A stretch of DNA of 64,000 nucleotides, from contig OZ024743.1 in assembly GCA_964016885.1 (NCBI GenBank), forward strand, positions 347,014,001-347,078,000. Direction: 5' to 3'. A model generated the notes under the pieces. It was given only the letters and a program-made list of their open reading frames with translations. It was not told the DNA's origin and ran no database searches. The stretch comes from Eledone cirrhosa (Eukaryota). Shown here piece by piece: positions 1,448 through 64,000 of the stretch. The stretch's first letter is position 1. The number at the start of each line of letters is the position of its first letter. The position numbers were made by a program, and so were the translations under genes.

Positions 1448-1668
1448 TGTATATGTGATTTTGAACAAAACTTGAGAATGACAGAGGGAAATGAAAAAAT
1501 GCATTTCGGGAGACATGATGAGAGAAAGAAGGGGAAATTGAAAAGAATAGAAAATAACATTTGAAAAATATTTAGAAATTTTAGCATGATCAAGAAGACA
1601 CAAGGAATATATAGGATAGTGATAGGGAATATGTATAATATGAATAAACATACATACATATACGCATG

Positions 1669-2020
1669 ATGGTGGCTGCCCCTCGTTATCGAGTATGGCC
1701 AGTGCACGATATAACATTATAAGTAATTATCAATTAATGCTATCGTGAAATGCTTGTGCGTGAAGATTTTTTTAAAAGTGAGGAAAGAATGTTCTCTAAG
1801 CCAAACCTACTCTCTGAGCGAAAGTATCTATAACCAGAAAAGAAGAAAAGATCAACATCATCGGTAACTAGTGAGCCGCAGGTTTTATGTCGGAGTTATC
1901 CCAGTTTCCTGAGTTGCCTTCTCATAGAAGAATGCCCTGTCAAAGGCTAGAGGTCCTTCTCTCTCAGTGATTTAACCGCGCGATCGGTTATCCAGCCTGA
2001 TTTTTTTCTATGTCCCCGTG
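1669..2020 (-). mobile_element. Diverged non-autonomous RTE-derived element (5'UTR piece + 3' hairpin)
   Basis: The 3' hairpin (GGTGGCTGCCCCTCGTTATCGAGTATGGCC on +) and the TTCTCATAG/AAGGCTAG motif resemble 2515-3124. Flanked by (CATA)-type repeats. Confidence 0.6.
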
Positions 2021-2514
2021 CATATACATAGATGTATACATGTATATATACATGTATACATGTATATATATACATATATACATATTTACACATTTTTGGA
2101 TGGTCGCATACATACATACATGAAGATTGCAGAGTCTTCACAGACGATTACCGTCTGTTTTGATTGACTCTTTGTTATCATCCCATCTGCGTCCATGACT
2201 TCGTAGATGACTTTGCAGGCCAGCATGGTTTACGACATGTGACAAAAGAGAGTTGTGCTTTGCACAGGACCAGGGGCGGTCACCCTGTGGGACATAATCT
2301 ATATGTATCACCATATGATTATTAGTCCGGAACTCGTTCTACACACTTTGCTGCATCTCACGCACGTTGTTTCGCCAGGTCATCGTTGAGTGTTGTTGCG
2401 GTTGGTTATCCTTTCATGTGACTTCAGGAGATTAACATAACCAACCTTTGAGAGGAGTACTCGCTGACAGAATAGGCATGTCCAACTACTGATGACTTCA
2501 TCATACATACATAC

Positions 2515-3124
2515 ATGGTGGCTGCCAACTCGTTTTCAAGTACGGCCACTACTTTATATCCATGTAGGAGGACCCCTACCGATGCGCTGAACGAGTGTGA
2601 CTTTTCAGTCCGGCCAGCGACTTGAAAACTTTGGTACAAACATTACACATGTGACAATTATTGACACATAGTGCTGGGCCCATGGTACCATGTGACGACA
2701 AGTGCAGAGAGATCTCCAGATATAAAGCAATGCCTGTGCCGTGAAGTTTTTATAGTGAGCAAAGGCACTGCACAAAGCCAGTCCCACTCTCTTAACCAAG
2801 ATGATATTTACCAAAAAGAAGAACAAGTCAACATCATTGGATATCATCAGGGTTGCAGGTGTGATATCAGAGTTTTCCTTCTCCTAGAATTCTGCCTTGA
2901 CAAAGGCTAAGGGGTCATCTCTCCCGGTGATTTTGGATGGCCATTGACTATTAAGAGCTCCTTTGCCCTTTGACAGGTTTTGTTTTTAGTCCTGCAGGAT
3001 GTCCAAAGTCACCCTCCTCACCAAGAAACCTTGGTGGGGTTGCCAGTTTAGTCGCCAACGACCCGACCATGGGACAGGTTGTACTGGGATACATGTTACC
3101 AGTAGCACCAACTGGTGACCTGAC
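2515..3124 (-). mobile_element. Bipartite non-autonomous RTE element (~610 bp)
   Basis: RTE 5'UTR motif CTAGGAGAAGGAAAACTCTGAT, then the ORF C-terminal C2H2 finger HMCNVCTKVFKSLAGLKSHTRSAHR*, the 3' hairpin CTTGAAAACGAG and a (TATG)n tail. Near-identical inverted copy at 6445-7053. Confidence 0.85.
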
Positions 3125-3233
3125 AAAACATAAAACATACATACATACATACATACATACATACATACATACATACATACATACATACATACATACATAC
3201 ATACATACATACATACATACAGAAGTATATATA

Positions 3234-3595
3234 TCAGGTCGCTCTTCAGCGTTACCAGTAACTTGTAACCCAGTACCACCTGTGGTTGGTCAGGTCGTCG
3301 ATGTCTAAAACGGCAACCCACCAAGCTTGCTTGGTGGGAAGGGTGGTTTTTGGACACCCTGTGGGCCGAAAAAACATAACCCCTTATGAGAGTTAACGGC
3401 CATCCAATAAAGTATTTTCTTGTGAAGCGAGATTCCTAGTCTTCATTAAGATATCTCTCTAGGAGAAAGTCACTCTGATATAAAACCTGCGACGTCGTTC
3501 GCATACACTAATGTAGACCAGTTCTTTTGGGGTAAATGCATTCGATGTTCAGATGGCATTACTCGAAATCGAGTTGCAGCCATCATCATCATCAT
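3234..3595 (+). mobile_element. Shorter bipartite RTE-derived element, different subfamily
   Basis: Same 5' start TCAGGTC, motif CTAGGAGAAAGTCACTCTGATATAAAACC, 3' hairpin CTCGAAATCGAG, and a (CAT)n then (TATG)n tail. Confidence 0.75.
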
Positions 3596-3652
3596 GTATG
3601 TATATATGTATATACATATGTATGTATGCATGTATGTATGTATGTATGTATG

Positions 3653-6352
3653 TTTTCTCTTTCTCTTAATTTCGAGTATATTTTTTTGACCGGCCACCTT
3701 CCTGGTGGCAAGGTTGTAAAAGAAAAGAAATTGTCATCCCTTGAATCGCAAGAATGTTTTGCATATTTTGAAGGTGCCAGCTATCGCAGCCATTTGTAGA
3801 CTATGAATTAGGGAGCTGCGCTTTTTGTCCGCAAATCCAAGTTCGGTCATACTTTGGTCCAAGCGGGTTGGTATATAACCCGTAGCACCAATAATGATGG
3901 GTATGAAGCTAAAGGTGTATCTTGGATACTGGATTTGTAAGCTCCTCATCAATGGTCCGTAGATGTCCTCCTTCTCCTGTATTTTTCTGACAACGTTTAC
4001 ATCAAGTGGGCAGCTGATCTCCACAACAGAACACGTTTTCAATGTGTGGTCCCAAACTACAATATCAGGCCGGTTGTGCTTTAATTTGGTGGCAGTTTTT
4101 ATTTTCAGGTTCCACCAGTATTCCTTAGTGCCATCTGTCTCAATATATTCTTCCTCGTTTGTTGTTAATTTTGTTTTCCGAAGTGCGTTCCAGATAGTTC
4201 TAGCTATCCCATCGTGTCTCATGGGGAGGTAGTAGCGAGATGACATTCTTTCGCAGCTGGCAACAATGTGGCTTACATCCTCGATCTTTGTTTTACATAG
4301 CCTACATTTATTGTCAGCTGCTGGCCCTCCTCTTTTGTGCAGCAGATATTTGGTAGGGAGTTCTTGTTCCTGTATTGCATAGAGATATCCCTCAAGGTGT
4401 GATGTCATAAACTTGTCGGAACTCCATGCCAGGCTTTTTGAGTGGTTTATCCCCTCTATGGTCTGTGTTTTACGCCTCAAGTATCCATGCACAACTTTCT
4501 CTGTAAATTGGTCAATTTTTTTTTCTTGTTTGAACATTGAATAGGATCTTCCGATTTCTCTGGGTGAGAGATTTATATCAGGCTTTATTCCATATCTCTC
4601 CTCCAGATCAGTCGCTATTCTAATGATATTTCTTTTTTCATGCTCATAAACCTGAGCAAGATGGTCGCCAACCTTTTTCCTCTGTTGAAGGTGTTGCTTC
4701 AGTGTTACTATCCGGGTCTCATATGTTGTTAATATTGATTTTAGACCCCGGCCACCTTCCTTGCGTGAGAAGTATAGCCTATCCACATCACCATTGATGT
4801 TAAAGTTCCCAGTAACACTGAGAAGTTTACGAGTTCTAACATCCATCTCACTTAGTTCTTGCAATGACCAGTTCAGTAGGCCAAATGTTGGCGTTAGAAT
4901 TGGCACAGCATAGGTATTGTGGGCAATGTATTTGTTGTATGCTGACAGTTCTGATGACCATATTTTTTTTACTCTTCTGAGGTATTCAGTTCTGATTCTC
5001 TCCTTATTTATGGGTCCATCATATCTGACATTCTCATCCTGTCCAAGATATCTGTAGTTGTCACCTGACTGCAGAGGTTGTATTGTCAGGCCGTTCATAT
5101 CTAGATTTCTAGAGGAGGGCACAGCTCTTCCACGTTTTACTGCCAAATATGCACACTTGGACTCACCAAATTTCATTTTGATGTCGGTTGAAAATTGTGT
5201 AATGAGGTCCAATTGTTTCTTGATGTCATTGATATTTGGCCCATACAACTTCAGGTCATCAACAAAGAAAAGATGGGAGATACTTCTGGGCCCACTTCTT
5301 TGTCCACCTTGTTTCCTGAGTAGGTAAGATAGTGGATTCAGTGAGAGAACGAAGAGTAGTACTGACAAGCTATCACCCTGAAAGATGCCCTTCTGGCAAT
5401 GTATCCTATCAGTCTTAACCTGCTCCTTCTCACCTCTAAGGATCAAATTGGTGTACCAGTTCTTGGTCAGGCGTTCAACAGCAGCTACTAATGGTTGTGG
5501 GACTTTAGCTAACTGTAAGGCCTTAATAATCCACCCATGAGGTACACTATCAAATGCTTTTTGATAGTCCAGCCACACGACAGTCATGTTTCTGCGATTC
5601 TTTGTTGTTTTTTCCTGAATCATTTTGTTAGTTAGTAGGTGATCTATGCAACCCCACACCTCCCTCTTTCCACCAGCTTGCTCAGGTGTTATGATGTTGT
5701 TGGTAGCACAGTGATCCTGTAAGAACAGGTTAAGGCACCCAGTATATAATTTATACATGATGTTTTGGCAGGCAATTGGGCGGTAATTTTTAGCAAGGGT
5801 GGTTTGGCTATTTTTGGGAATGAGGAGAGTAGTTGCAGTTGATAACCATCTGGGCAGTTCTTGTGTGCCCTTAATGGTTTCTGTAAACAGCCGTATGAGA
5901 TCTTGCCGATAGAAAGTGAAATTCTTCAACCAGTATCCTGTAATGAGGTCTGGGCCTGGCGATTTCCTATTCGACATTTTCTGTAGAGCTGTTTCCAGTA
6001 TTGACCCATCTATGTCATATTGTTTTGTCTGGACATGTTGGCAGTAGTCCTGTTCCAGTTGTTTTAGCCAATTAGCTTGTCTGTTGAATCCGTCATCCGT
6101 TTCCCATACAGATCTCCAGTAGTTCTCAACCTGTTCTTTTGAAGGGGTGTCATTTACAGGGATTGAGCTTTTGCCACCGAAGCTGCGATAAACTGATTTA
6201 GGATCTCTGGCAAACAATCTATTTAGCACTTGTCGTTTATGGGCTGTTGACTTATATTTTAGTCTTTCTGTTGTAGCTGTGAGTTGTTGTTTCAACTGGT
6301 GTAATTTGGAGTTCAAAGTTTTAAATTTGGTATCTCCAAATCGTCTCTCTAC
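3653..6352 (-). mobile_element. 5'-truncated R4/Dong-clade non-LTR retrotransposon (family A) embedded in (CATA)n
   Basis: Uninterrupted ORF and an ~80-nt 3'UTR. (CATA)n lies directly on both sides in the same orientation. The reading frame runs up to the repeat at 6352. Confidence 0.92.
3734..6316 (-). CDS. Reverse transcriptase + CCHC knuckle + restriction-like (PD..D/ExK) endonuclease, R4/Dong type; N-terminus truncated
   Basis: Motifs KSPGPD, NYRPI, WLDYQKAFDSVPH, GIFQGDSLS, FVDDLKLY, CRLC..EDVSHIVASC, RHD, NRPDIVVWD, VEISCP, KEDIY. Confidence 0.95.
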   Translation of the reverse strand: MNSKLHQLKQQLTATTERLKYKSTAHKRQVLNRLFARDPKSVYRSFGGKSSIPVNDTPSKEQVENYWRSVWETDDGFNRQANWLKQLEQDYCQHVQTKQYDIDGSILETALQKMSNRKSPGPDLITGYWLKNFTFYRQDLIRLFTETIKGTQELPRWLSTATTLLIPKNSQTTLAKNYRPIACQNIMYKLYTGCLNLFLQDHCATNNIITPEQAGGKREVWGCIDHLLTNKMIQEKTTKNRRNMTVVWLDYQKAFDSVPHGWIIKALQLAKVPQPLVAAVERLTKNWYTNLILRGEKEQVKTDRIHCQKGIFQGDSLSVLLFVLSLNPLSYLLRKQGGQRSGPRSISHLFFVDDLKLYGPNINDIKKQLDLITQFSTDIKMKFGESKCAYLAVKRGRAVPSSRNLDMNGLTIQPLQSGDNYRYLGQDENVRYDGPINKERIRTEYLRRVKKIWSSELSAYNKYIAHNTYAVPILTPTFGLLNWSLQELSEMDVRTRKLLSVTGNFNINGDVDRLYFSRKEGGRGLKSILTTYETRIVTLKQHLQQRKKVGDHLAQVYEHEKRNIIRIATDLEERYGIKPDINLSPREIGRSYSMFKQEKKIDQFTEKVVHGYLRRKTQTIEGINHSKSLAWSSDKFMTSHLEGYLYAIQEQELPTKYLLHKRGGPAADNKCRLCKTKIEDVSHIVASCERMSSRYYLPMRHDGIARTIWNALRKTKLTTNEEEYIETDGTKEYWWNLKIKTATKLKHNRPDIVVWDHTLKTCSVVEISCPLDVNVVRKIQEKEDIYGPLMRSLQIQYPRYTFSFIPIIIGATGYIPTRLDQSMTELGFADKKRSSLIHSLQMAAIAGTFKICKTFLRFKG

Positions 6353-6383
<31 letters not shown>

Positions 6384-6444
6384 TGTATGTATGTATGTAT
6401 GTATGTATGTATGTATGTATGTATGCATGTATGTATGTATGTAT

Positions 6445-7051
6445 GTCAAGTCACCACTTGGTGCTACTGGTAACATGTATTCCAGTACAACCTGTCCCAT
6501 GGTCGGGTCGTTGGCGACTAAACTGGTACCCCCACCAAGGTTTCTTGGTGAGGAGGGTGACTTTGGACATCCTGCAGGACTAAAAACAAAATCTTTCAAA
6601 GGGAAAAGGAGCTCTTAATAATCAATGGCCATCCAAAATCACCGGGAGAGATGACCCCTTAGCCTTTGTCAAGGCAGAATTCTAGGAGAAGGAAACCTCT
6701 GATATAACACCTGCAACCCTGATGGTATCCAATGATGTTGACTTGTTCTTCTTTTTGGTAAATATCATCTTGGTTAAGAGAGTGGGACTGGCTTTGTGCA
6801 GTGCCTTTGCTCACTATAAAAGCTTCACGGCACAGGCATTGCTTTATATCTGGAGATCTCTCTGCACTTGTCGTCACATGGTACCATGGGCCCAGCACTA
6901 TGTATCAATAATTGTCACAAGTGTAGTGTTTGTACCAGAGTTTTCAAGTCGCTGGCTGGACTAAAAAGTCACACTCGTCAGCGCATCGGTAAGGGTTCTC
7001 CTACATGGATATAAAGTGGTGGCCGTACTCGAAAACGAGTTGGCAGCCACC

Positions 7052-7053
<2 letters not shown>
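6445..7053 (+). mobile_element. Bipartite non-autonomous RTE element, second copy
   Basis: Reverse complement of 2515-3124 with scattered substitutions. Zn-finger remnant HKCSVCTRVFKSLAGLKSH near 6916-6972. (TATG)n on both sides. Confidence 0.85.
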
Positions 7054-7082
<29 letters not shown>

Positions 7083-7205
7083 TGTATGTATGTATGTATG
7101 TATGTATGTATGCATGTATGCATGTATGTATGTATTGTTTCTCTGTTTCTTGAACACGTACGCGTATAAATATATACACATATACGTCACTACTATCAGT
7201 TAAAT

Positions 7206-8459
7206 CAGGCATTTCAAACGTGCGGCCTTTTACAAGAACACCTGCGGCCCGCACAAATGTTTTTAAAAGCGCAACCTGTTTTTTCTTCGCATTATAAAAT
7301 AAAAAAAAATTAGTTGTCATGTGTGCCCTTAGTTGTCGTGTGTGGCCCTCTGACAACACATATGTGACCCACCTGGCCCTCAACGAATCTTCAGTTTTAC
7401 ATGCCTAAACTAAACTTTATTTTAATCTGTAATCCATGTTTCATTTGTGTCGCACCTCATTTCTCTCTCTCTCTATATATATATTTATATATATAATTTG
7501 TTAGTTGAAATAATTAAATTAAATTAATTCAACAGTTAAACACACATAGGAATAATAAGCTTGTTACCAAAGAGCCTGAGGATTGACAAGGAAAGCGATG
7601 AACGACACATCTTTTTAACTATGGTTTTGAAAGTAGATTTATAATTATTAGTTTTCATTATACTGTTGTAGATGTCTCGGTAGATAATTTTGAGGAATCA
7701 CAGATGGTGGTGATCCTGGTCTGAAGTTCGATCATAGTCGGGTGTAGGGTTCCGGGTAAAACTTTTCAGTTTTTTTCTATGGGATATAAAATAAAAATTG
7801 CAAAGGATTACATGTACCTTTTGACCAGGATTGAACCCAAGACCAAGATCTCCACCGTCTCTAGTACCTACCGCTAGACCGCTGAGACATCTACGAAAGT
7901 CAATTGAAAATTCATACTTAAAAACCTACTTTCGAAATGTTCAATACAAAATAATGTGGTGTCGTTCATGTCTTTCTTAATGTTATTGCTCCTACTAGAG
8001 ATCAACTTCAAAATCAATTGGGTGTACCATAAACTACATCCTCGTTTTGTTTCTCATCTATCTAGATAAGGCAAGCACACCTGCGGCCCGCTCAAAGTTT
8101 TTACTGCGCGAGCATGTTTTATCTTTGTAATAATATGTTTTATCTTTGTAATTTTTCGATACAATTTTTTTTTTAGGCAATTTTCTGTCAACTACTTTTA
8201 ACTTCCGACGAATCACGCGCAGCTCATTAACAGTTGTAAACAAAAAACTTTCTTTCAAAATTTCAAAACTTTTCTTTTAGAATGGCTACTGCTTCTCCAG
8301 CCTTTAAGTAACAATTTAAGTAACACATTTTTCTGCAATACATTTTATTAAATGAATTTAATTAGTTGTAATGTGCACAATTAGTTGTCGTGTGCGGCCC
8401 TCAGACAACACATATGTGACCCATGCGGCGCTTGGAGGACCCTCTGTTTGACATGCCTG
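7206..8459. mobile_element. hAT (Charlie-like) MITE sequences, possibly one composite unit
   Basis: TIR CAGGCATTTCAAAC / GTTTGACATGCCTG. Flanks AGTTAAAT / GGTTAAAT match at 7 of 8 positions with a central TA. Two copies of the TGCGGCCC-containing body (7206-7405, 8077-8459). Confidence 0.6.
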
Positions 8460-8808
8460 GGTTAAATCATATCTATTAATATATTACCACGCTAAACTTG
8501 AATTTCTTAGTTTATATTATACTCTTGCTAAAGATTTAAATGAAAAATATATATGCTAAGTAGCGACTTTTAAATTGCTATGAAAGATGTTTACATCTGG
8601 CAAGCTCATATTGGATGGAATCCGCAATTATTTAGTGGTTACTGATATAATCTGTTTCTTGCTCTTTACGTATAATGTTTTAAATAAATAAATTTATTTT
8701 TCTGGACAATTTACTATCCGCTGATGCAGGTCCCGAGCCGATGTATATTCCTATATGTGTATATGTTCACAAAACATAATTTATGTGCGGAAAATATACA
8801 TAATGTTA

Positions 8809-9153
8809 TATTTGGGGAGGTTTATGTTGTTATAATATTGCCAGAAAAATATAGTAAAACACATTCACTATTTGGTTTGGGTTGGTTTTAGCTTCAGTAT
8901 GTGTTTTATACTTTCAGCTAGCAATCAATGCTTATCTTTGATTGACCAACCGTTAAAAATATAGATATAAATATAGTTAGTCAGAGATCTTTCGTCACTT
9001 AGCTGTGACATCTTCAGTTATGTTTTCATGTTCCTCCCGTTGTATTCCTGTAATAAAATATACTGAAGCGAAAACCAACCCAAACCAAACAGTGAGAGTG
9101 TTTTACTATATTTTTCTGTCAATATTATAACAACATGTCCCTCCCCAAACATA
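8809..9153 (-). mobile_element. Penelope-type pLTR fragment with inverted duplication and decayed hammerhead (8980-9021)
   Basis: 8809-8897 is inverted at 9062-9153. Minus strand reads CTGAAGA-TGTCAC..GTGAC-GAAA-GATC-TC. Homologous to 20720-21005 and 58625-58885. Confidence 0.65.
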
Positions 9154-26239: not shown

Positions 26240-27971
26240 AACCGTGTAACAAAAATATTTTTTTTCTCTGTTCCTGGCTTGTAATCACTTTTTTTGTGTT
26301 GCTTAGGTCCCAAATAAATAATAAAGTGCTATTAAACAGTTAAAAGTTTCGGTTTGTAAAATTGTAAAACTCTAAGCTATTCACTAGAATTTATTTTATG
26401 CTGGATTTTACGTTGTATGTAAGTTTAATTTGCTTATGTTAAATGATTTTTTTTATATATGTTTCAGGTTAAATTAAAATTATAAAATAAAGAGTAATAC
26501 CTAAAGAAAATTATAAAAGTGTAATAAAGTATAACATTGTTAAAAAAGTGGATTAAAGAGATTTACTGATACTGGATTTTCGCACTTTGAATAAAGGGTA
26601 AGTTGTGTTTTAAGCATTCGTCTCCAGGATGAAGCAGTGGAACTTGCTCAAGGAGGAAGTGCAGGTGACAAGTCAGAGAAGTCGACACGAACCTTTCTCA
26701 GGCTTTTACACTCTTAGGGATAGCCTCTGCTTCTGCCATGACGTGCCTGGACTGTTTGACGTTATTGGGGTACCGTTTGTGTCCAAGCAGTGGCGGCTAT
26801 TTATAGACAGCTCCACCACAAGTTTGAAGGCTGTGCTCCTCCACAATGGAAACACGTTCCCGACACTGCCCCTGTGCTCATTCAGTCTGCCTGAAGGAAG
26901 ATTTTACTACAGTGTGAAAGTCCGTGAAAGTCCTCTTAAAGCACTGCAATACAACCAGTATAATTGGGAAATCATTGGAGACTTCAAGATGGTGGCTTTC
27001 CTGCTAGGACTCCAAGGAGGCTTTATCAAATTCCAATGCTGCCTCTGCTTTTGGGACAGCAGAGCCACCTCTGACCACTACAAAAGAAAGAACTGGGAGA
27101 AGCGAACAGAATTTGTAGTTGGGACCCGGAACGACATGTGGGAGCCATTGGTTGATCCCAGGATTGTGCCCATGCCGCCACTGCACACTAAGTTAGGGTT
27201 GATGAAGCAGTTTGTGAAGGCCACTTTTAAGTACCTTCTTGAGTTCTTCCCCAAGTTATCTGAGGCCAAAATCAAAGTTTGAATTTTTGTTGGACCTCAG
27301 ATAAAGAAGGTGTTTGAGTCTACAGAGTTCTCCAATAAGCTCAATAGGGTTGAGAGAACAGCATGGAACTGTTTCAAGGCAGTTGTTAAGGGCTTCGTGG
27401 GCAACTACAGAGCTGAAAACTGAAAACTACTGGTGCAGGATCTGATAAAGGCTTTTGGCGCCATAGGATGCAGGATGTCGCTTAAACTCCATATGCTGGA
27501 CGCTCACATGGAATAATTCAAGGACAATATGGGCGCCTACTTAGAAGAACAAGGCGAACGATTCCACCAAGATGGGAAAGAGATAGAACGGAGGTACCAG
27601 GGTTACTACAATGAAAAAATGATGGGGGACTATATCTGGGGGCTAGTGCGGCAATGCGACCTGGACTACAACCACAAAATCCAGGAAATCCAGTAATTTC
27701 TGACGGGTATAAGTTGTTTTATAAGTGTTATTTGTTTTTACTTGTTTGCTTTTAATACGCTTGTGTAATAAAATAAATATATACTCTGTTGATTTAATTA
27801 TATGAACTGATAAATTAAAAAAAAATGTTTTTTGTTGATATTTCAAAATATCAAAATCCTGACCACAAACCCAAACTTCTAATTAAATAATGGTGTTTCT
27901 TTATAATAATTGGACATAACACCCAGGAAATGATACTTAGAACCGGGGAACAAAAGATATCTTACGCGGTG
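26240..27971 (+). mobile_element. Chapaev3 (CMC superfamily) DNA transposon, internally deleted
   Basis: Termini (C>A)ACCGTGTAA / TTACGCGGTG, with a 3-bp TSD TTA on both sides. Confidence 0.85.
26629..27700 (+). pseudogene. Chapaev3 transposase, C-terminal part with stops and deletions
   Basis: Motifs WRLFIDSS..SLKAVLLHNGN, GDFKM..LLGLQGG, PPLHTKLGLMKQFVKA, GCRMSLKLH, EEQGERFHQD, MMGDYIWGL. Confidence 0.85.
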
Positions 27972-35027: not shown

Positions 35028-35061
<34 letters not shown>

Positions 35062-35234
35062 TAATTTAATATATCTACTAACATAAGCGCACAGATGTAC
35101 GCCAATGCCAGCAAATACACAGGTTATGTCATAGTACCTAGGTGGTTCGATGCAGGAGAATGCAGAACAATAATATAAAAGACGTAAAATAAGAACATTT
35201 AAAAAAAAAATTAACTTACTTACTTAAATTTTCA

Positions 35235-35314
35235 CTCCAACTAATTAGTTTCTGCAATGGGATAAAGACAGTTACGTAATGAACCGTTGAGAATTTCATT
35301 GCGTCATCAGGGAG
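35235..35314 (-). ncRNA. Hammerhead ribozyme, copy 1
   Basis: Reverse complement of 35784-35863. Confidence 0.75.
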
Positions 35315-35783
35315 GTCATTCTCAGCCGAGTCTCCAGGCGATGCGCGGACACTGGCGACTCATATAAAAATAATAATAATTCGGTAAATGGAACAGCTAT
35401 CGAGGACTGGATTCCAGCTACTGAAAATTCTCACTACCACTGATCATATGGCCGATTCTAAAGAATCAATCACGTGACACAGAGGCTAGTCAGTAGGAAT
35501 GGGGTGGTAAGATGACAAGCGCCTACTAACACCCCCAAAACCACTTCTAAAAATGTTTTTTGGGGGTGTTAGTAGGCGCTTGTCATCTTACCACCCCATT
35601 CCTACTGACTAGCCTCTGTGTCACGTGATTGATTCTTTAGAATCGGCCATATGATCAGTGGCAGTGAGAATTTTCAGTAGCTGGAATCCAGTCCTCGATA
35701 GCTGTTCCATCTACCGAATTATTATTATTTTTATATGAGTCGCCAGTGTCCGCGCATCGCCTGGAGACTCGGCTGAGAATGAC

Positions 35784-35863
35784 CTCCCTGATGACGCAAT
35801 GAAATTCTCAACGGTTCATTACGTAACTGTCTTTATCCCATTGCAGAAACTAATTAGTTGGAG
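35784..35863 (+). ncRNA. Hammerhead ribozyme, copy 2
   Basis: CTCC-CTGATGA-CGCAATG..CATTGCA-GAAA-CTAATTAG-TT-GGAG; palindromic stem III; triplet GUU. Confidence 0.78.
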
Positions 35864-36327
35864 TGAAAATTTAAGTAAGTAAGTTAATTTTTTTAAAAAA
35901 TTTTCTTATTTACGTCTTTTATATTATTGTTCTGCATTCTCCTGCATCGAACCACCCAGGTACTATGACATAACCTGTGTATTTGCTGGCATTGGCGTAC
36001 ATCTGTGCGCTTATGTTAGTAGATATATTAAATTATCTATATTTATCTCCAAATCACTGATTTGTCGAGCAAACCTGCCAAAACCACTTCTAAAAATTTT
36101 TTTTGGGGGGTGTTAGTAGGCGCTTGTCATCTTACCACCCCATTCCTACTGACTAGCCTCTGTGTCACGTGATTGATTCTTTAGAATCGGCCATATGATC
36201 AGTGGCAGTGAGAATTTTCAGTAGCTGGAATCCAGTCCTCGATAGCTGTTCCATTTACCGAATTATTATTATTTTTATATGAGTCGCCAGTGTCCGCGCA
36301 TCGCCTGGAGACTCGGCTGAGAATGAC

Positions 36328-36407
36328 CTCCCTGATGACGCAATGAAATTCTCAACGGTTCATTACGTAACTGTCTTTATCCCATTGCAGAAACTAATTA
36401 GTTGGAG
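36328..36407 (+). ncRNA. Hammerhead ribozyme, copy 3
   Basis: Identical motif 544 nt downstream of copy 2. Confidence 0.78.
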
Positions 36408-36524
36408 TGAAAATTTAAGTAAGTAAGATAATTTTTTAAAAAGATTTTCTTATTTACGTCTTTTATATATATATATATATATATATAATATAAGATCAAA
36501 AGATGGTTAAAGGAGTTCCATGTA

Positions 36525-37620: not shown

Positions 37621-39775
37621 TTAACTGTATACTTTGTGAAAAGTCCTATGGAATTTATGCAGGCAGATAGAAAACAAATCTGTACGTCTATTTATTATAG
37701 AATCTAGATTAGAGATAATGGTAAATTTTTCATTTAGGCAGAGATTACAGATTTTAGATAGAGAGCTGTTCAAGTATGAGGATGCAGAAGAAACCTTCTT
37801 CCAAAAGATGGTATATTTAATGTTTTTGTCTTTCAAGGACGATATGAGTTCTGAGAGAGCCGTGTTGGTTCTTTTAAGTTTGTATTTGAAAGATGAATGG
37901 TGATTATAGAGACGAGCTTTAAAAGAGGTGGAAGTGGAGCCAGAATAGGTGAAGGAATTGGTGCTAGTTATAATTTTACATTCATAAATTAAGTTTTTAT
38001 CGAGACAATGGTTGTTGAGAGGACATTTATTTTTAATGCGGCAGTTGCAATTAGAGAGGTTCTTAATGAGTGACCTAGTGTTATCTATAGAAGGAATTGG
38101 ATTGGAGAAGTTGTTTGCGATAGGAATAATAGGAATAATAGTTTCTTGATTTAGAGTTGGATTATGAACATTTAGCGAAGTTGTGTTTGACGTTGTATTT
38201 GGGTTTACAGAAGTTAGCCTAGGGTTTACAATGACGTCGGGAGTACTATTACTGTTATTATGAAATTCAATGTTGGAAGGAAGAGATTTAGTATTTAGTA
38301 TTTTATTGTTGTGTTTAGAGATGATGTTGGAAATATTGGAGGATGTAGAATAAGAAAATTTGATGGTGTGTTTGTTAAATATTTTACTATAGATATGTGA
38401 GGGAGGGAAGCATTTATTTAAGGCACTAAAAAATAATTTAGGAATATTGTTATTAATAGAGATGGAGAAAGGAGCATTATACCAGATTATGTTTTTGTAT
38501 CTAGGTCTTTTATTAAAATTATTGGAATGATCATGATTAATTATTCTACTGTAAGTTTTTCTAGAATTTGTTTCTTTACTATATTTGATTTTATCTGGAT
38601 AGCCGGCTTTAGAAAGTGCGTTATTATAGTAATTGGCGTTAGCATCAAAGATGTTTTTATTAGAAGATATGTTAGATATTCTTTTTCCAATATTACTAAC
38701 TATAGCATTCTTGATATTGAGAGGATGGTTAGATTTAAAGTTAACATAATTTAGGTTCTCATTGTTTTTATCGTAAGGGTAATATAGGCCAGTGTCAAGA
38801 TTAAGAGATACATCCAAGAAATTTGCTAGTTTGATACTATTATCAAATTCAATTTTTAGGTTATGTTGGTTAAAGAGATTACATATATTGTTCTTAATAA
38901 TATTAAGGTTAACTATATTGCAATTTAGGATAGTAAAGAGTCCATCGTCACGATAAATTCCACCTCAAAGTTGAGGAATTTTCCGACTCAAAGTGTTCAA
39001 AATGAAGATACCAATTAAATCAGTCAATTGGGATGAATCGGATGCTCCCATTGTGATGTCGAAGTTGTTAGAGGTATCGGCTCTGGTCCAATATTCGTTG
39101 TTGAACTCTAGGATGGTTTTACGTGCGGTGAGGATGATGTGAAGTTCATCTGTGGTGATGTCAGAATATTTAAGTGCGAAAGATAGAGCATTATTGAGAA
39201 GTGAAGGCGAAATAGAAGAATAGTAGCTGGCAATATCAAATTGAATAAATTTTAGTTTGTTTTTATTATCCAATTTGTTGAACCAGCCAATCACTTCAGA
39301 AGTACCAAAACATAAATTTAGGTTCAAAGAAGAGCAATTAGAACTAACCTGTGGGATAATTCTATCCAAGATGGCTTTACTAACAACCCCCAGATCAGAT
39401 TTAGAGGGGGGCGATTAATCTGACAGGTAGTTCAGTGCGAAAATTGTTTTTGTGATCCTTGAGATTTATCCTTGAGATTTATTCTTGGGAGGAATGGTTC
39501 GGTCTTTTTTTCAATGCCAAGTTTTGACATAATCTCAGAGGCTTCAAGGTTTATGTATTCTAAATTTTCATGGTTGGTTTTACGATACTTTTTCCTAAGT
39601 TCCTTTAAGATAAGGTTGTTATAATTATCCTTGGAAATACCATATAAGTTATTGGTTTTGTCAGAGTGGACTAAAACATTTTTTGAGGAATTTAGGTTAG
39701 AAATTGTGTTCTTGAGATTTACAAGGTGCTCTTGTCCTTTGTAAGGGTATCTCTTGAATTTAAGATTTTTTATTA
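37621..39775 (-). pseudogene. PLE reverse transcriptase + GIY-YIG endonuclease, with frameshift and stop
   Basis: FIQFDIASYYSSI, FDITMGA, IYRDDG, FLDVSLNL, SNHP, IIWYNAPFS, CNCR..CPL..C, LIY..YSGST..FKARLYNH, CNLCLNEK. Confidence 0.9.
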
Positions 39776-43383: not shown

Positions 43384-43792
43384 GTGCGTGTGTATGTGTG
43401 TGTGTGCGCGTGTGTGTGTGTGTGTGCGTGTGCGTGCGCGCGTGTGTGTGTATTTAAAAGGTAAACAGAAATAACAACAGAATAGGTACAGTATATGGAA
43501 GGAATATATTAAGTTGACGCTTGAAATAGCTTAAAGAGAGCCCTAACTTTCCGTACGCTAGTCCTTCATCAGAAGGAAGAATGTGAAATTAGAAAGATTG
43601 AACAGACGGGCGGGGTGGAATTGGAAATATATATATATATGTATATATATACTTTCATACATACATATCTGTATGATTGTGTGTATGAATGTGTGAATAT
43701 GCGTATGTATGTATGTATGCATGTATGTAGTATGTATGTATGTATGTATGTATGTATGTATGTATGTATGTATGTATGTATGTATGTATATG

Positions 43793-44300
43793 TTCTTCTG
43801 GTTTTATAATTTCACAAAGTTTTACCAATAGAGAGAGAGTCGGTTTCTAACATAGACACAAGACTCTCTCATTGGAATTTACACAACATCAACTAGGTAG
43901 ATATGTATGTATGCATGCATGTGTAGATATGGATGTTATTGTATGTGTGGATGTGGATGTTTTGAGTTGTATGTGTGCATGTGTATATGCTTTGTATCTG
44001 TACATGTGTATATGCAGTTATTAGATGCAACATTTTTGGAATGTTTTACATATTTTTACTGTTCCATTAATGGATTGTACTTGTAGTTTCCTAACTAGTG
44101 TTCTTTCTGTTCCTGTGCAGCCTAGCTTCTCAAGATTTGTATTGAGGCAGTTACTTACATATCCCAGTGCCCCAATAATCACAGTCATAAATCTGAAGGT
44201 GTAATTAGGGTGGAGTATCTGCAGATTTCTCATCAGTTCTGCATAAATATTCTCCTTTTCACTAATCTTTGATATTATATTGGCATCTGCTGGGCAGCTA
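43793..44300 (-). mobile_element. Short 5'-truncated R4/Dong family B copy inside (TATG)n
   Basis: Homologous to 60557-61068. Encodes MRNLQILHPNYTFRFMTVIIGALG. TATG repeats on both sides. Confidence 0.9.
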
Positions 44301-46394
44301 TTATGTATGTATGTGTGTATGTATGTGTTTGTGTTATATTTTTGATAGCTATGTGTTCAATGTTGATGTATTTGTTATTAAAGTGTTTTCGAATTTGTTT
44401 ATTAGTTCTTTAAATTCTATATCCATACGTTTTGTATCATTTCCATCCTCATCGTCCAACTAAAAAGTACGAGAAGCTGTTTTGTACCATATCATAATCT
44501 TTGGATACTTTTAAAATATGTTATAGAATGTGTTAGTTATGTGAGTCGTTTACAGCTTTTAATTGTACAAGCTGATTACAAGAGACTATTTTTGCCTTGG
44601 TATTCTTATCTGCAAGCACTATCACCTTCAAGTTGCCATTTGAACTAGTGTACTGATCGTCCGCTTATTCACCATATTTATAGCTAAAACAGGCACTGAA
44701 ATTGCTTCTAACCAAACCAGGATTTTATCACAATCCACTGGTAGAAATAGAAGCCAAATTTCTCTCAAACTACAGCCAATCCTATTTCACAATGCACCTA
44801 AGAACATGATAGGCATATGAGAAATGTTTTTGTTCATAGGTCTGCAGAATCAATGCGAAGGATGACATAAGAACGTGTCAGTTATCATCTACTACGGCAT
44901 AACACTAACTTGACGATTTGGTATGCAATTTGGTATATAGAAAGAGATGAAGGGTACTTATTGCCAATATGACTAATATAACGCAGTACTATTCACTATT
45001 TTATTTTCTAAATCTTTTATTTTCCTGTGCCGTTGCAACTTCTGTCTGTTATCCAAGTTCTAATCTATTTAATTACATGACCTTTATTACTGTGAATTTC
45101 AGGCTCGTCGCGGGAATAATGTCTTTCGTGGTTGACACATCTCACCAAATGTGACATCTTATACAAAATAGAGGTGAAAACTAGAATCTAAATAATATAA
45201 ATCACCGAAATGACAGATGTAGAATTCAGTGCAGTGCTTAAAGGCCTATACCTTTTCTTTCTCAATACATAGCGAAATCAATATAATAAAGATATCTTCC
45301 AATTGTGTCATCATATATATTTTAAGTTTGTTATAAAGGGATATTTACTTAATGATCTTATTAGGTGCAAGTGTGTAGAGGTACCACAGGAAATGTAACT
45401 TTAATTAGTTTATCTTAGGGAGAAATACGGCAAAATGGCAGTTATAAGTCAGTAGAGGCTCAACCCGTTCCGAGTTATAGTCCCGTCGAAGTCAATTTCG
45501 CCTTTCATACTATAGGTTTCAGTAAAATCTTAGCAATCTCGTGATAAGAGACTGACGGAACTGTTAAAATTCGGAGAGAACGTCTAACAATATCTGTCCC
45601 CGGTCTGTGAGTCACGAGTTCGATTCCAGCATCTGCGATCACCAGATAGTATCAGCATCGGAAAAATGTATTGAACTTTAATTTTCTTGAATCATTTAAA
45701 AAAACCGACGATTTTCTGACCAATAATTGCTAACAAGGTAAACATCAATGCCGATCTGCTCTCTATTCCTATAAACTCTGCACAGTAAGACTTTTAAAAT
45801 AATTAAAAAGATACTGGGTACGGCATTCACAGTCTCTTTAATAACGAATAGATAGATGCCGTTAATGAACTGCTTAATGTATTGCAAATTCGTTCTTTTT
45901 CAGACGATAACTGCAACGAGGGATTTCCAGACGGTCGACGTTTTGGAAGGAAATATTCGGAGTACTGATTAGTGCGGGACTTAGGGAATTGTATAAAATA
46001 TGTATGATGAAATGAGTATTATATATATATATATATATACAGACTGAAAGGGGAAATAATTTGAATGACCAACAACATTTCACTCGTTTGTTCCCTATGT
46101 TCTCTGATTCAGCCATCCACATATAATATATATTGTACTAACATTGAATCTAAGCATGTGAATAACAATGAGTTATGTAGAGAAACCCATAATTTAGAAG
46201 AAATATAATACTTTTCTTCAAATACAGCAGTTCATTTGTATGCAGCAAAGATTCCTTCCTGCCTGTTATAATACGAACGCTTGGTAGTCAACATAAATTA
46301 CAACTAATATAATAGAGAAAAGATTATGGAGGTATTTATAGAAATACTGACAGAAAAAGGGTTTTACTTACCATTATTATTATTATTAAACAGA

Positions 46395-50200: not shown

Positions 50201-51306
50201 CCGCTGAAGTACGGGAGGCAATGACTAGCTGCACAAGGGTCAAATCACCTGGTTTGGATGGTCTGGCCTATGAACTTTACGTACAGATGCCAGACTTGTT
50301 CGGAGGCCTCTTGGTGGACGTCTACTGCAACTGCCAACAGAACAGGAGAATTCCCAGCTCTTTGAGCCGAGGAGCGGTGGCGCTGCTGAGAAAGGATCCG
50401 AACAAGAGGGATAACATAGATAATTTTAGGCCCATGACCCTTCTAAACACAGAGTTCAAGATTTTGACCAAGGTACTATCAAAGAGGTTGGCGCTTGTCG
50501 TCCGTGGTCTGTTGGGAGAGGCGCAGACATGCGCCATTCCCGACAGATCCATTCACGACAACCTCCACCTCATGCGATACATCGTAGAGAGGGTAGCTAG
50601 GGAACCTGGCACGGGTGGGTCCTTGATCAATTTAGATCAGTCGAAATCTTTCGATAGGATCGACCATCGTTACCTTGCAGCAGTCCTGAGGGCGGCTGGC
50701 TTTAGGCCCGTCTTCATAGGCTCGATCGCTGCCATGCACAGCGACATCTGCTCTGTGGTGAGAGTGAACGGTCACCTTTGGGAACCGTTCAACATCATGC
50801 ACTCAGTCCGCCAAGGATATCCCCTCTCGACCCTCTTGTACGTATTGACTCTCGAGCCATTACCGCACAAACTGGAGACGTTGAGGGGGTCCCGCGCGAA
50901 CTAGGATGCGGAAGATCGGTGTCAGCATATGCGGACGATGTCACCGTAGTGGTGTCGAACGCCAAACACATCGAGGCGATCGGCACTACACTAAGAGAAT
51001 ACGAAGCGGTGACAGGAGCAATGATCAACCAGGAAAGTCAGCGGGCTTGCAGCTCGGCACCTGCAGAGGCAGGTCCATGACGTCCAACAGCGTCGTCAGG
51101 CGCTGGACGGACGGACCGGTTAAATTGCTAGGGGTCTGGTTCGGTCCGGACCTCCAGACGGACAAAAACTGGGGCGAGGTGACGAGCAGGGTGGCTTCTC
51201 TCACCCAGAAATGAGCGGAGAGGAAGCTATCCCTGAAGGGTCGAGCGGAGGTGGCTAACGCGTACATCGCGTCCGTCATCTACTACCGCCTGACCGTCGT
51301 ACCTTG
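47257..51306 (+). mobile_element. Tx1/L1-clade LINE, frameshifted, 3' truncated
   Basis: Broken ORF1 (47257-48840). ORF2 from ATG 48880 with APE motifs (GSINARGL, ISET, LVGDWN, SYLDR, TDHK), GYWKLN, and RT motifs (KSPGLDG, NFRPMTLLN, DQSKSFDR, RQGYPLS, AYADD). Confidence 0.9.
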
Positions 51307-60420: not shown

Positions 60421-60508
<88 letters not shown>

Positions 60509-60556
60509 TGTATGTATGTATGTATGTATGTATGTATGTATGTATGTATGTATGTA

Positions 60557-63500
60557 TCTTCTTCTGGTTTTATAATTTCACAAATTTGTTCCCAATAGAG
60601 AGTCGGTTTCTAACATAGACACAACACTCTCTCATTGGAATTTACACTAACATCAACTAGGTAGATTATGTATGTATGCATGCATGTGTAGATATGGATG
60701 TTATTGTATGTGTGGATGCATATGTTTTGAGTTGTATGTGTAGATGTGTATATGCTTTGTATCTGTACATGTGTATATGCAGTTATTAGATGAAATTTTT
60801 GTGGAATGTTTTACATATTTTTACTGTTCCATTAATGGATTGTACTTGTAATTTCTTAACTAGTTGTGTTCTTTCTGTTCCTGTGAAGCCTAGCTTCTCA
60901 AGATTTATATTGAGGCAGTTACTAACATACCCCAGTGCCCCAATAATCACAGGCATAAATCTGAAGGTGTAATCAGAGTGGAGTATCTGCAGATTTCTCA
61001 TCAGTTCTGCATAAATATTCTCCTTTTCGCTAATCTTTGATATTATATTGGCATCTGCTAGGCAGCTAATTTCCACTACTGTGCATGCTTTCCTCTCCCT
61101 GTCCCATATCATAATATCTGATCTGTTATGCCTGCATTTTATTGGGGTTTTTACTGGAACATTCCCCCAGTACTCTTTCATATTATGTATATGTATGTCT
61201 TCCACATTGCTGTAGCTTTTAATGTGTTTATTATCGGGGCTAACTTTTTTACGAACTCCATTGTACAGTGTTTTGGCCACTACATCATGCCTCACAGGTA
61301 GATAGTACCGCGATGACATCTTTTGACAGCGGCTGACGACATGGGTGATATCCTCGATGTTAGTTCTGCAGAGTCTGCATTTGTTATCACATCTAGGTGT
61401 TTTGCCTGCATCCTATTCCTTTTGTGAATCAGGTATTTCGTGTTAATTTCCTGTTCTTGGATTGCAAAAGCGTATTCTTTAAAGTGGGAGCCAATATAGC
61501 GGTTGTTGGTCCAAGATAGACTACTTTCCTTATCTATATTACTCTCACTCTGGAGCTTCCTGGCAACATATCCATGCATGATTTTTTGCTGATAAGCATG
61601 TAGTTTTTCATCCATGGATTCACTGCGAAACTGCTGAGCGACTTCCCTGGGTGTGAGTTTCTGATTATCACACAGGGAATATCTCTCGGGGAGTTCCTTC
61701 CCAACTCTCATGATCTTATCTGTTTCATGCAGATAGACTTGCTCGAGAGACGGACTCCTACGCTTCGAGGTTCCTAGATGTCGGAGAGATATGATGCGAC
61801 ATCCAAATGCCTCTGCCTCCCTGCTTACGTTTCAAGTAAAGGCGGTCTATGTCACTGTTGATGTGGAAGTTTCCAGTGTTGTTTAGTATTTTTCGAGTTC
61901 CAACATCAACTGATCGGATTTCGTCTATCGTCCAATTGAGTATTCGAAATGTTGGTTTTAGGACAGGCACAGCAAACACATTGTGAGCCACTGTTTTGTT
62001 TTGCGCAGAGAGATCCGATGACCAAATCTTTCTTAATCGGGTGTAGTATTCCCTAGTTACGCGTTCTTTATTACAGATACCATTATGGGATATGTTCTCA
62101 TCTATCCCCGGATATCTGTAGCAGTCCTCATCAGATATCGGTGAAACAGTTCGGCCATTGATGACAATGTTGCTAGATTGGGTTGTTTTTATTCCCCGCT
62201 TTACAGTCATGTATAAGCATTTATCTTGGCCAAACTCCATTCCTATATCCTTTGAGAACGTTGTAACCAGGTCAAGATTTTTCTTCACCCCACCCATGTT
62301 CTTGGCATAGAGTTTCAGATCCTACACAAAGAAATTATGGGTTAGGTTCGTATTTCTGTCCTCCTGTGAGCCAATGATAGATCCTTCACATTTCTTGAGC
62401 AGAAAGGACAAGGGATTTAATGACAAGATGAATAATATCACAGAGAGACTGTCCCCCTGAAATATACCCCTGCGATATTTATTTTATCAGCGAAAATAGA
62501 GTGCTTCTTCTCTGTCTTTAACCTTAGGATAGCCCAAGAAGAAGACTGCTTCTCTATGACTCTGACAATAATGTCTGGGACTTTAGCAAGTTGGAGGGCC
62601 TCTATCATCCAAGAGTAGGGAACAGAATCGAAAGCTTTCCTGTAGTCCAGCCAGGCTGTAGCTATATTCCTTCTAAGTTGTCACACCTCCGACATCGCAG
62701 TTTTGTTGATTAGGAGTTGTTCAGCACATCCCCAAACCCCTTTCTTTACAGCTGCTTGTTCATCTGTGATGATGTTATTATTTTCACAGTGATCTTGGAG
62801 GTTCAGGAAGGCTGTATACATCTGATGCATCAGTTCTGGCATGCAATGGTTTGTTAGTTCTTTACCAAGTGGGTGTCTTTGTTCTTGAGGACCAGTAATG
62901 TTTGTGCTAATGTCAACAATTCTGGTATAAGTGTATCTCCCTTAAGAACTTGTTGGTAGAGGTCAGTAAGATACCTCCGATAGAATATCAGTTTTTTGTA
63001 TCAGTAGCCGACAATCATGTCTCTTCCTGGTGTTTTCTGATCTTGGAGTTTTCCTATCACAGTTTCAAGAGTACCCTCCCTTATTTCGTATGTTTTTGTT
63101 GTAGTGTAGGAGCAATATCTCTTTCGGATTTCTCTTAGCCACACTGCATCTTGGTTGAAATTCTTCTTTTCACTCCATATTTTGCTCCAAAAGGAATCTA
63201 TGTCTTCCTAGGATGGGGTCTCAGTGACACTTATTATTTTGTTCTACATATCTCTATAGACTGATGTTTGGTTTCGTCTGAATATTTTATTAAGCACTTT
63301 TCTCTCATCTACCTTCTTCAGTTATCGGTGTTTTTCACTAACAGCTCTCAATTCTTGTTTGAGGGTGATCAGCTTATATTGAAGCGTTCTGGTTCTACTG
63401 TTACCAAACATCGTCTCTATTTTATTTTTCACTCTTTGTTGGTGATGAGTGGGGTTTTTTGTGTTTGTTTGCATGTAAGGAGCATTGTCACATATTCTAT

Positions 63501-64000
63501 TGTTTTTCGTAGGTCAACAATCTTTTTTTCTATTTTAGTTATATATGATGGTATTTTTGGCGGTGTTTTGTTCTTGTTAATATCTCTGCTATCACCAAGA
63601 TAATGCTTCACTGTCGTTGCTAGGGCATATAAACAGGCGTTGATTTGCCAAAAATGTTGGGGTTTTTATCCGTCGTAAATATTCATCCCTTATTTTGTCA
63701 ATAACACGTAATATTTTATTATTTGTTTTACCAGTAATACACTGGTAATTGCTGGCCTTGTGCCTAACGTAGAAACAATTATTTGTTTTTTTTATTAAAC
63801 ATTGTCGTTTTAATACTTTCAGCAAGAGAGATATTTATACATGAATTAATTTCTCTCTGGAAGATTTCGTTGAGGGAAATTTTCAATTGTTTATACTTTT
63901 GATTATTATCATTATCGATAGTATTTTCCACAACAGTCGTGGTAGACTCGGATGTTACACGTGGTGTCAAATTTCTTCGATTATTATTATTATTTCTTCG
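60557..64000 (-). mobile_element. R4/Dong family B LINE, frameshifted, 3' end in (CATA)n; SINE tail inserted at 63728-63783
   Basis: RHDVVA, HNRSDIMIWD, VEISC, LDYRKAFDSVP, FQGDSLS; colinear with the 3734-6316 ORF. Confidence 0.9.

What the first reader, a model, noticed from the sequence alone, without database searches (positions are those of the whole stretch)
3596..6445. R4/Dong LINEs that appear to target (CATA)n
Seen: three insertions from two distinct families have 3' ends joined to (CATA)n on the sense strand (3653, 43793, 60557). In the two with visible 5' truncation points (6352, 44300) the same repeat continues on the other side. Known: R4-clade RLE elements are sequence-specific, and Dong targets (TAA)n. 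Inference: an endonuclease specific for a tetranucleotide repeat. The family A ORF is still open over 860 aa, so it is recent. I cannot verify whether this target has already been described.
Basis: partly seen in the sequence, partly recalled or inferred. Interest (0 to 1): 0.7.

Follow-up and report, generated by a model that had tools for sequence, protein, structure and literature searches.

The report
Dong-like retrotransposons landing in CATA repeats
Two families of jumping genes in this probably octopus genome sit almost only inside CATA four-letter repeats, on one strand, and at the one site where the empty version could be seen the repeat was already there; their own protein likely picks this repeat, unlike their known relatives that use TAA, which would make them a natural test of how such elements change landing site.

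Summary
Confirmed and extended. Window 3653-6351 (minus) is a 5'-truncated copy of a young, single-ORF RT + restriction-like-endonuclease LINE (family A, 4.2 kb, copies 99.7-100% alike). Family B is older and about 51% identical in protein. All 89 sampled A copies have CATA at the 3' end. 72 of 75 visible 5' junctions (53 of 55 truncated ones) also sit in CATA, against 1.1% of background; none is in pure TA, CA or TAA, although pure TA is nine times commoner. The two flanks share their array's impurities. One insertion site has 24 empty paralogs carrying the same tract. So CATA is a target, not just a tail. A canonical Dong family in this genome is TAA-flanked, and metagenome relatives on the A/B branch end in CATA or CTTA. 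That the protein, rather than RNA-tail pairing, selects the repeat is inferred. A 607-nt non-coding element shares the sites less strictly. This scan already noted the same system elsewhere in this genome. Ten literature searches showed no CATA target, but Repbase, Dfam and key papers were unavailable. Verdict: new target variant of the R4/Dong kind.

The parts
3653..6351 (-). Family A LINE, 5'-truncated at position 1525 of the 4223-nt full-length element
   Evidence: 99.78% to full-length copy L006; 3095 candidates genome-wide
3734..6351 (-). Open frame of 871 aa: RT domain, CCHC knuckle, restriction-like endonuclease (RH, PD, E, K..Y); the N-terminal Myb-like domain is lost by truncation
3959..4306 (-). 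CCHC knuckle to K..Y motif of the endonuclease (C980 to Y1095 of the full-length protein); coordinates computed from the protein offset
   Evidence: conserved columns; motif roles from PMC4838377 passages
3594..3652 (-). (CATA)n at the 3' junction of A, impure, leading into element X'
6353..6445 (-). (CATA)23 at the 5' junction of A; also the 3' boundary of element X
6446..7052 (-). Element X: 607-nt non-coding repeat, same orientation as A, ends in CATA, likely non-autonomous retroposon
   Evidence: 3823 candidates, 30 loci about 97% alike; no tRNA or gathering-level Rfam match
7053..7135 (-). (CATA)n upstream of X
3221..3590 (-). Element X': shorter, diverged relative of X (73-85% in three blocks), downstream of A in the same orientation
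2514..3135 (+). Second copy of X, opposite orientation, with CATA runs at 2502-2513 and 3136-3219 on its own sense strand
   Evidence: inverted match 95.6% over 720 nt
1668..2105 (+). Element Y: another X relative with short CATA runs on both sides
43794..44300 (-). Family B LINE, short 5'-truncated copy (endonuclease end and 3' UTR)
   Evidence: 93.4% to the 60558 copy
43704..43793 (-). (CATA)n at the 3' junction of the short B copy
44301..44330 (-). Short impure CATA/CACA run at the 5' junction of the short B copy
60558..64000 (-). Family B LINE, long degraded copy; continues about 610 nt beyond the window to a 5' end preceded by (CATA)n
60479..60557 (-). (CATA)19 at the 3' junction of the long B copy, followed by (TA)n

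Best explanation
Families A and B are restriction-like-endonuclease LINEs of a Dong-related branch that sit in CATA-containing microsatellites on one strand, and they likely get there because their own protein recognises and nicks that repeat before target-primed reverse transcription. Shown: the location, the strand, a pre-existing target at one A site, intact RT/CCHC/endonuclease motifs in A, excess 1-5 nt microhomology at 5' truncation points, and head-to-tail stacking. Inferred: the N-terminal three-helix Myb/SANT-like domain and the endonuclease read the 4-nt repeat; the TATG strand is nicked; the RNA's short CA/CATA 3' end meets the primer; the cDNA joins the upstream repeat by microhomology. 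Each insertion leaves CATA on both sides, so the target is kept and stacks of A, B and X grow. The short element X likely borrows a Dong-type enzyme (target duplication 7-11 nt), but its partner is not identified. Odds: preference for pre-existing CATA about 0.93; protein-determined recognition as the main cause about 0.7.
For: 89 of 89 A copies have CATA within 8 nt of the 3' end. 72 of 75 visible 5' junctions (53 of 55 truncated, 19 of 20 full-length) have at least 3 CATA in 30 nt; 0 of 75 have TATG, pure TA, pure CA or TAA. Background: 1.06%; pure TA 12-mers 10,502 vs CATA 1,121 vs CA 1,084 in 200 kb. Flank flavour matches across the insertion: 23 loci, 2 of 5000 shuffles; 6 new loci, 7 of 5000; pooled 29 loci, 0 of 5000. 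Empty sites: 24 of 29 paralogs of the L058 site join both flanks through the tract, 23 of them with at least 2 CATA units. Control family C in this genome: 11 of 16 visible 5' junctions TAA, none CATA. Tree: all CATA- and CTTA-ended elements fall in one branch (SH-aLRT 100), apart from the TAA-ended ones. 60 of 60 recognised neighbours are in the same orientation. Microhomology mean 1.63 vs 0.83 expected, p about 0.001, 27 junctions. N-terminal three-helix bundle at pLDDT about 90, best structural matches Myb/SANT-like at Z 5-6.
Against: No biochemistry. X, which shares the sites, is looser: of 30 5' flanks 10 are pure CATA, 9 mixed, 4 pure TA, 7 other, and L141 and L157 adjoin TATG-oriented repeats; if X uses the A/B enzyme, that enzyme is not strictly CATA-specific. 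B is less clean: 11 of 18 alignment ends pass the test, 12 counting a short flank; of the other six, two are internal deletions, two abut another element, two are non-repeat. One relative on the four-letter branch (L218) has TAA at its 5' contig end and CTTA at its 3' end. The empty-site evidence rests on one A insertion. No target duplication could be measured for A. The Myb-like matches are at Z below 8 and Foldseek found none at E 0.001 or better. The copies sampled are top search hits, not random draws.
Confidence: 0.7

Rival explanations
1. Tail-guided targeting: the endonuclease nicks loosely (for example any pyrimidine-A repeat) and specificity arises because only a TATG-strand primer can pair with the RNA's CATA 3' end.
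For: Every A copy ends in CA or CATA. Branch-wide, tail and target repeat always go together. X enters TA and mixed arrays. Pairing would also explain the single orientation.
Against: The encoded tail looks short: in L002, L007, L027 and L066 one CATA is followed by out-of-phase array sequence. X has the same CATA end yet often sits in TA arrays, whereas A is never in pure TA (0 of 75), so the tail alone does not fix the choice. Published Dong and R4 elements are described as directed by an N-terminal Myb-like domain (argued, not tested, in PMC7998251).
Confidence: 0.22
2. CATA is only an element-made tail; the 5' runs are tails of earlier elements captured by template jumping during one insertion event, or made during insertion.
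For: 28 of 56 readable 5' neighbours are X, B or A in the same orientation, as at window 6352. All 20 full-length A copies start with the same CATACA register, which suggests their RNA carries a few upstream repeat bases. Four X copies share a transduced 3' flank.
Against: The other 28 5' neighbours are unrelated sequence yet still have CATA. Truncated copies cannot carry upstream RNA. Flank impurities match on both sides. The L058 site exists empty, with the tract, in 24 paralogs.
Confidence: 0.05
3. Chance or survival bias: insertions are random and survive, or gather repeats, in microsatellite-rich DNA.
For: The genome is rich in simple repeats.
Against: 96% vs 1.1% background; strict strand bias; no use of the nine-fold commoner TA; copies near 100% identical already have both flanks; family C shows a different repeat in the same genome.
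Confidence: 0.02

Closest known systems
Dong (Bombyx mori) and Dong-like R4-clade elements of insects, molluscs, cnidarians and the ostracod Darwinula
   Same: Single ORF with RT and C-terminal restriction-like endonuclease, N-terminal Myb/SANT-like domain without zinc fingers, insertion into a microsatellite (PMC7998251 passages). A TAA-flanked family of this type is in the same genome.
   Different: Target is (CATA)n, not (TAA)n, which that paper gives for most insects, molluscs and cnidarians. A and B form a separate branch, 27-30% identical to the TAA-side proteins over the whole length.
'Dong-R4' LINEs of octopus repeat annotations
   Same: Probably the same category: five recently active Dong-R4 families with 1129 insertions are tabulated for Octopus vulgaris (PMC13282606 passages); a full-length Dong is noted in O. 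bimaculoides (PMC9115989 passages). The nearest named protein is from Argonauta hians.
   Different: No target site is mentioned: 'target' 0 times in the main text of PMC13282606 and CATA/TATG 0 times in its one held supplement; 'target site' 0 times in PMC9115989. Identity of those families with A or B was not testable.
R4 (nematode rDNA) and Rex6 (fish)
   Same: Same clade by the cited papers; RT plus restriction-like endonuclease.
   Different: R4 targets rDNA. No microsatellite target for Rex6 appeared in the review passages read. Neither sequence was in my tree.
R2 (solved structures)
   Same: Best structural match of the predicted model (E 1e-34 to 1e-27, TM about 0.55); shared RH, PD, E and K..Y endonuclease motifs.
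   Different: Only 16-20% identity; R2 targets 28S rDNA and has N-terminal zinc fingers.
Other microsatellite-specific non-LTR families (Togen on (TG)n, some HERO families; Mino on AC repeats)
   Same: Microsatellite as a dedicated target (PMC4640811 and PMC3124438 passages).
   Different: Other clades and other repeats; none is described with a four-base unit in the passages read.

Membership tests
R4/Dong clade | Single long ORF with RT followed by CCHC knuckle and restriction-like endonuclease, no APE domain | tested here: met
   1169-aa ORF; Pfam RVT_1 and zf-RVT only for the window part; C980/C983/H992/C997, R1009-H1010, P1059-D1060, K1091, Y1095 conserved; fold closest to R2
R4/Dong clade | N-terminal divergent Myb/SANT-like domain without zinc fingers | tested here: inconclusive
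   Three helices at 22-73 with invariant W, W, L. Top VIA matches are Zeste (Z 6.2, rmsd 2.5, 64 aligned), TRF1, Sap1, GT-1, but Z is below 8 and Foldseek has no match at E 0.001. No zinc-finger motif seen in the N-terminus.
R4/Dong clade | Phylogenetic placement with named R4, Dong, Rex6 against R2, NeSL, HERO outgroups | tested here: inconclusive
   A and B form a branch (SH-aLRT 100) next to TAA-flanked elements and insect proteins, including a Pediculus RT at 33% identity. No named Dong or R4 sequence and no outgroup were in the tree; it is the quick tree, midpoint-rooted.
R4/Dong clade | Sequence-specific insertion into rDNA or a microsatellite | tested here: met
Dong in the strict sense | Target is (TAA)n | tested here: not met
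   0 of 75 A 5' junctions in TAA; family C of this genome meets it, 11 of 16
R4/Dong clade | HDV-like self-cleaving ribozyme at the 5' end (reported for R4 and Bombyx Dong, PMC3774820) | tested here: inconclusive
   A home-made pattern found none in A, B, X or relatives, but also none in the TAA-type L221 and L239, and it had no positive control
R4/Dong clade | Short target-site duplication | tested here: inconclusive
   Not measurable for A or B in periodic arrays. X shows 7-11 nt in irregular sites (L134, L145, L150, L154, L290).
R4/Dong clade | Endonuclease cleaves the target in vitro | not testable with these tools
   needs purified protein
tRNA- or 5S-derived SINE (element X) | Pol III RNA-derived head | tested here: not met
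   ARAGORN 0 genes in 1500-8600; none of 46 weak Rfam matches in 1500-9000 is a tRNA or 5S family and none reaches its gathering score. A very diverged head could be missed.

The most novel reading that the evidence does not exclude
An undescribed, deep sister lineage of Dong that switched from three-base TAA to four-base microsatellite targets (CATA in this genome and in another organism's sample, CTTA and perhaps GAC-N repeats elsewhere). Its Myb-like domain and endonuclease read repeat period and strand, and it builds self-renewing one-way stacks shared with a large family of non-tRNA short elements.
Probability: 0.55. Interest if true: 0.65.

Novelty: new variant of a known kind. Interest (0 to 1): 0.5.

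Why it matters
Restriction-like-endonuclease retrotransposons are the basis of current RNA-only gene-insertion tools, and how they change target is an open question. Here a young family with many intact copies uses CATA while a sister family in the same nucleus uses TAA, so domain swaps and tail swaps between two co-resident elements can separate protein recognition from RNA-tail pairing. It also means that many CATA arrays in this genome are landing sites and junction marks of retroelements, which matters for repeat annotation and microsatellite markers. The mechanism itself (target-primed reverse transcription into a microsatellite) is known from Dong.

Tried and rejected
Empty allele from reads: four public runs (X1, X2, X4, X8 of 11 listed; all contigs) were laid on L327:500-2900. 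None of the joints shown skips the insertion and no contig spans it (292 further joints were not shown), so nothing follows. Target-duplication length for A: not resolvable in periodic arrays. A single cut register at 5' truncations: all four phases occur and microhomology blurs them. HDV-ribozyme pattern: no hit, no positive control. Rfam on 1500-9000: 46 matches, none at gathering score, mostly microsatellite-driven miRNA matches. X as a deletion product of A or B: no BLAST similarity to either. One apparent X-head/B-like chimera (3' neighbour of L052) was seen but not pursued. A search for a third four-letter family with a distant relative's endonuclease: all 30 fetched loci of 150 matches were family A. 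Foldseek for the N-terminal domain: no match at E 0.001. Rows left out of counts: L063 (same copy as L021); 14 of 89 A copies without a visible 5' end; L003, L023, L027, L028 from the flavour test, plus loci not repeat-like over 60 nt on both sides (31 of 54, 12 of 18); 7 unclean junctions and L003, L023, L030 from the microhomology test. Not held: Kojima and Fujiwara 2004, Xiong and Eickbush 1993, Burke 1995, Shivram 2011, Biedler 2015, Fell 2025. Repbase and Dfam are not available here.
Full report
1. Observation. The five junctions are as described. Window 3653-6351 on the minus strand is an 871-aa open frame with RT and zf-RVT matches. Two copies of a second family, B, lie at 43794-44300 and 60558 to beyond the window; they are 93% alike in DNA, and B is 51% identical to A in the endonuclease region. 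The long B copy ends about 610 nt past the window and is preceded by a CATA run too. The host is a 3.0-Gb genome; the nearest named protein is from Argonauta, so an octopod is inferred.

2. The element. Full-length A is 4223 nt with one ORF of 1169 aa; the window copy starts at position 1525. The 30 best copies are 99.7-100% identical and 24 of them keep a frame of at least 1173 codons; the search saw 3095 candidates. In 76 aligned homologs the CCHC knuckle and the RH, PD and K..Y endonuclease residues are conserved and present in A (motif roles from PMC4838377, passages). The predicted model (mean pLDDT 88.9) matches R2 structures best. Residues 22-73 form a three-helix bundle whose best matches are Myb/SANT-like DNA-binding domains, at modest Z of 5-6; Foldseek gave nothing significant.

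3. Target or tail. Three samples of top hits (L063 dropped as a duplicate) gave 89 A copies. All 89 have CATA within 8 nt of the 3' end. 75 have a visible 5' junction: 72 have at least three CATA units in the last 30 nt (53 of 55 truncated, 19 of 20 full-length), and none has TATG, pure TA, pure CA or TAA. Two of the three exceptions are an internal deletion (L003) and an X-A chimera (L023). In 200 kb taken at 20 arbitrary places, 848 of 79,760 30-mers pass that test, and pure TA 12-mers outnumber CATA 10,502 to 1,121. Truncated copies cannot carry upstream repeat in their RNA, so they are the decisive class.

4. The array came first. Where both flanks are repeat-like over 60 nt, their 6-mer make-up matches better than shuffled pairs: 23 of 54 loci, 2 of 5000 shuffles; 6 of 18 new loci, 7 of 5000; pooled 29 of 73, 0 of 5000. 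Copy L058 lies inside a dispersed repeat. Of 29 other copies of that repeat, 24 join the same two flanks through a CATA/CA/TA tract with no insertion (longest CATA run 1-21 units, at least 2 in 23), 3 carry other inserts, and 2 lack the downstream flank. A sits in the CATA part of the tract. This rests on one A site; an attempt to find an empty allele in public runs gave nothing.

5. Family B and controls. B has CATA as its first four 3' bases in 27 of 30 copies. At the 5' side 11 of 18 alignment ends pass the test, 12 with a short flank; two of the rest are internal deletions, two abut another element, two are non-repeat. A search with a distant homolog found a canonical family C in the same genome: 11 of its 16 visible 5' junctions are TAA, none CATA. 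So the family, not genome composition, decides the repeat. Among 63 metagenome loci, three full-length relatives from one sample have CATA at both ends (L211, L214, L220; 37-46% identity), five have CTTA at one or both ends (L212, L215, L216, L218, L219), and six of the more distant ones have TAA or TAAA. These contigs are probably collapsed copies, and most of the 63 show no terminal repeat. In a quick ML tree of 48 rows all CATA/CTTA elements fall in one 27-row branch (SH-aLRT 100) apart from the TAA ones. The tree has no named reference or outgroup, and L218 has TAA at its 5' end.

6. Mechanism. Shown: one strand only; 60 of 60 recognised neighbours of A (X, Y, B, A) in the same orientation, one being the L003 deletion; microhomology at 27 clean truncation points averaging 1.63 nt against 0.83 simulated (p about 0.001); a short encoded tail, since four copies show one CATA and then out-of-phase array. 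From established knowledge of R2-type elements: bottom-strand nick, priming, reverse transcription. Inferred: the Myb-like domain and endonuclease select the CATA phase; each insertion leaves target on both sides and so feeds stacks such as X-A-X' in this window. Against a strict enzyme: X goes into TA and mixed arrays (10 CATA, 9 mixed, 4 TA, 7 other of 30). X has 7-11 nt duplications at irregular sites and no similarity to A or B, so its partner is open. The main rival is loose nicking plus pairing with the RNA tail (0.22).

7. Comparison with what is known. PMC7998251 (passages) states that R4/Dong elements have RT and a restriction-like endonuclease, insert into rDNA or microsatellites, carry a divergent Myb/SANT domain, and use (TAA)n in most insects, molluscs and cnidarians. 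PMC13282606 (passages and its one held supplement), PMC9115989, PMC8967140 and PMC10294476, all passages only, list Dong-R4 in cephalopods without a target. PMC3774820 (passages) reports a 5' ribozyme for Dong and R4; my test for it was inconclusive. PMC4640811, PMC6274825, PMC13708176 and PMC3124438 (passages) name other targets. Ten searches (listings only, apart from the papers named) showed no CATA-specific family. Kojima and Fujiwara 2004, Fell 2025, Repbase and Dfam could not be seen and may hold it. The system works like Dong, very probably belongs to the R4 clade, and fails the strict Dong feature of a TAA target.

8. Earlier notes of this scan report the same CATA targeting, the CTTA relatives and the TAA families on other DNA of this genome. 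They are unreviewed and not independent support. The four-letter branch and the TAA control were leads from them that I tested; the empty-site series, flank-flavour test and microhomology test were run here.

9. Verdict. Real feature, strongly supported as insertion into pre-existing CATA arrays; protein-based recognition likely (0.7) but untested. New variant of a known kind; interest 0.5.

Noticed in passing
window 6446-7052 (-), 2514-3135 (+), 3221-3590 (-), 1668-2105 (+); L131-L160: A family group of 370-610 nt non-coding elements (X, X', Y) with a 5' hairpin, a CATA end and no tRNA head; X has 3823 candidates. No sequence link to A or B; partner LINE unknown.
   Followed up: partly
L139, L140, L147, L149: Four X copies on different contigs share the same irregular 3' microsatellite but differ at the 5' side: likely 3' transduction from one source copy.
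   Followed up: partly
5' neighbours in L060, L061, L067, L074, L078, L084: X copies cut short at the 3' end and joined directly to CATA at varied positions, often at AT or CAT microhomology: internal priming or later deletion.
   Followed up: no
L274-L303 (flank of L058): A dispersed repeat of about 600 nt (620 candidates) with an internal CATA/CA/TA tract that has received A (L274), X (L290, L140), a short Y-like element (L282) and another insert (L286).
   Followed up: yes
20 full-length A copies, e.g. L002, L004, L006: All begin CATACA|ATGGCG in one register, even where the array phase differs (L018, L024), which suggests the RNA carries a few upstream repeat bases. X begins with a similar ATGG.
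   Followed up: partly
L233 3' end; L216 5' end; L218: Relatives on the four-letter branch: one ends in GACT/GACG repeats, one has a mixed CTTA/CATA 5' flank, one has TAA at the 5' end and CTTA at the 3' end.
   Followed up: no
window 37621-38964 (-) and 35051-36468: 447-aa open frame without a Pfam match, recalled as resembling the end of a Penelope-like RT/GIY-YIG protein, beside a palindrome of about 1 kb (35051-36046).
   Followed up: no
window 43540-43580 (-): CTGATGA...GAAA motif recalled as a hammerhead-ribozyme core; not folded or tested.
   Followed up: no
window 47472-50904 (+) and 54402-54854 (+): Degraded two-ORF LINE with an APE-type endonuclease and RT (Pfam), probably Tx1/L1-like, and a second RT fragment.
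   Followed up: no
window 26614-27282 (+): 222-aa open frame without a Pfam match, possibly a DNA-transposon remnant.
   Followed up: no
run X2 laid on L327: A run with another species label holds family A at high depth, and its 3' loose-end consensus ends in ..GAGAAACAT, while Y-like cover is low.
   Followed up: no
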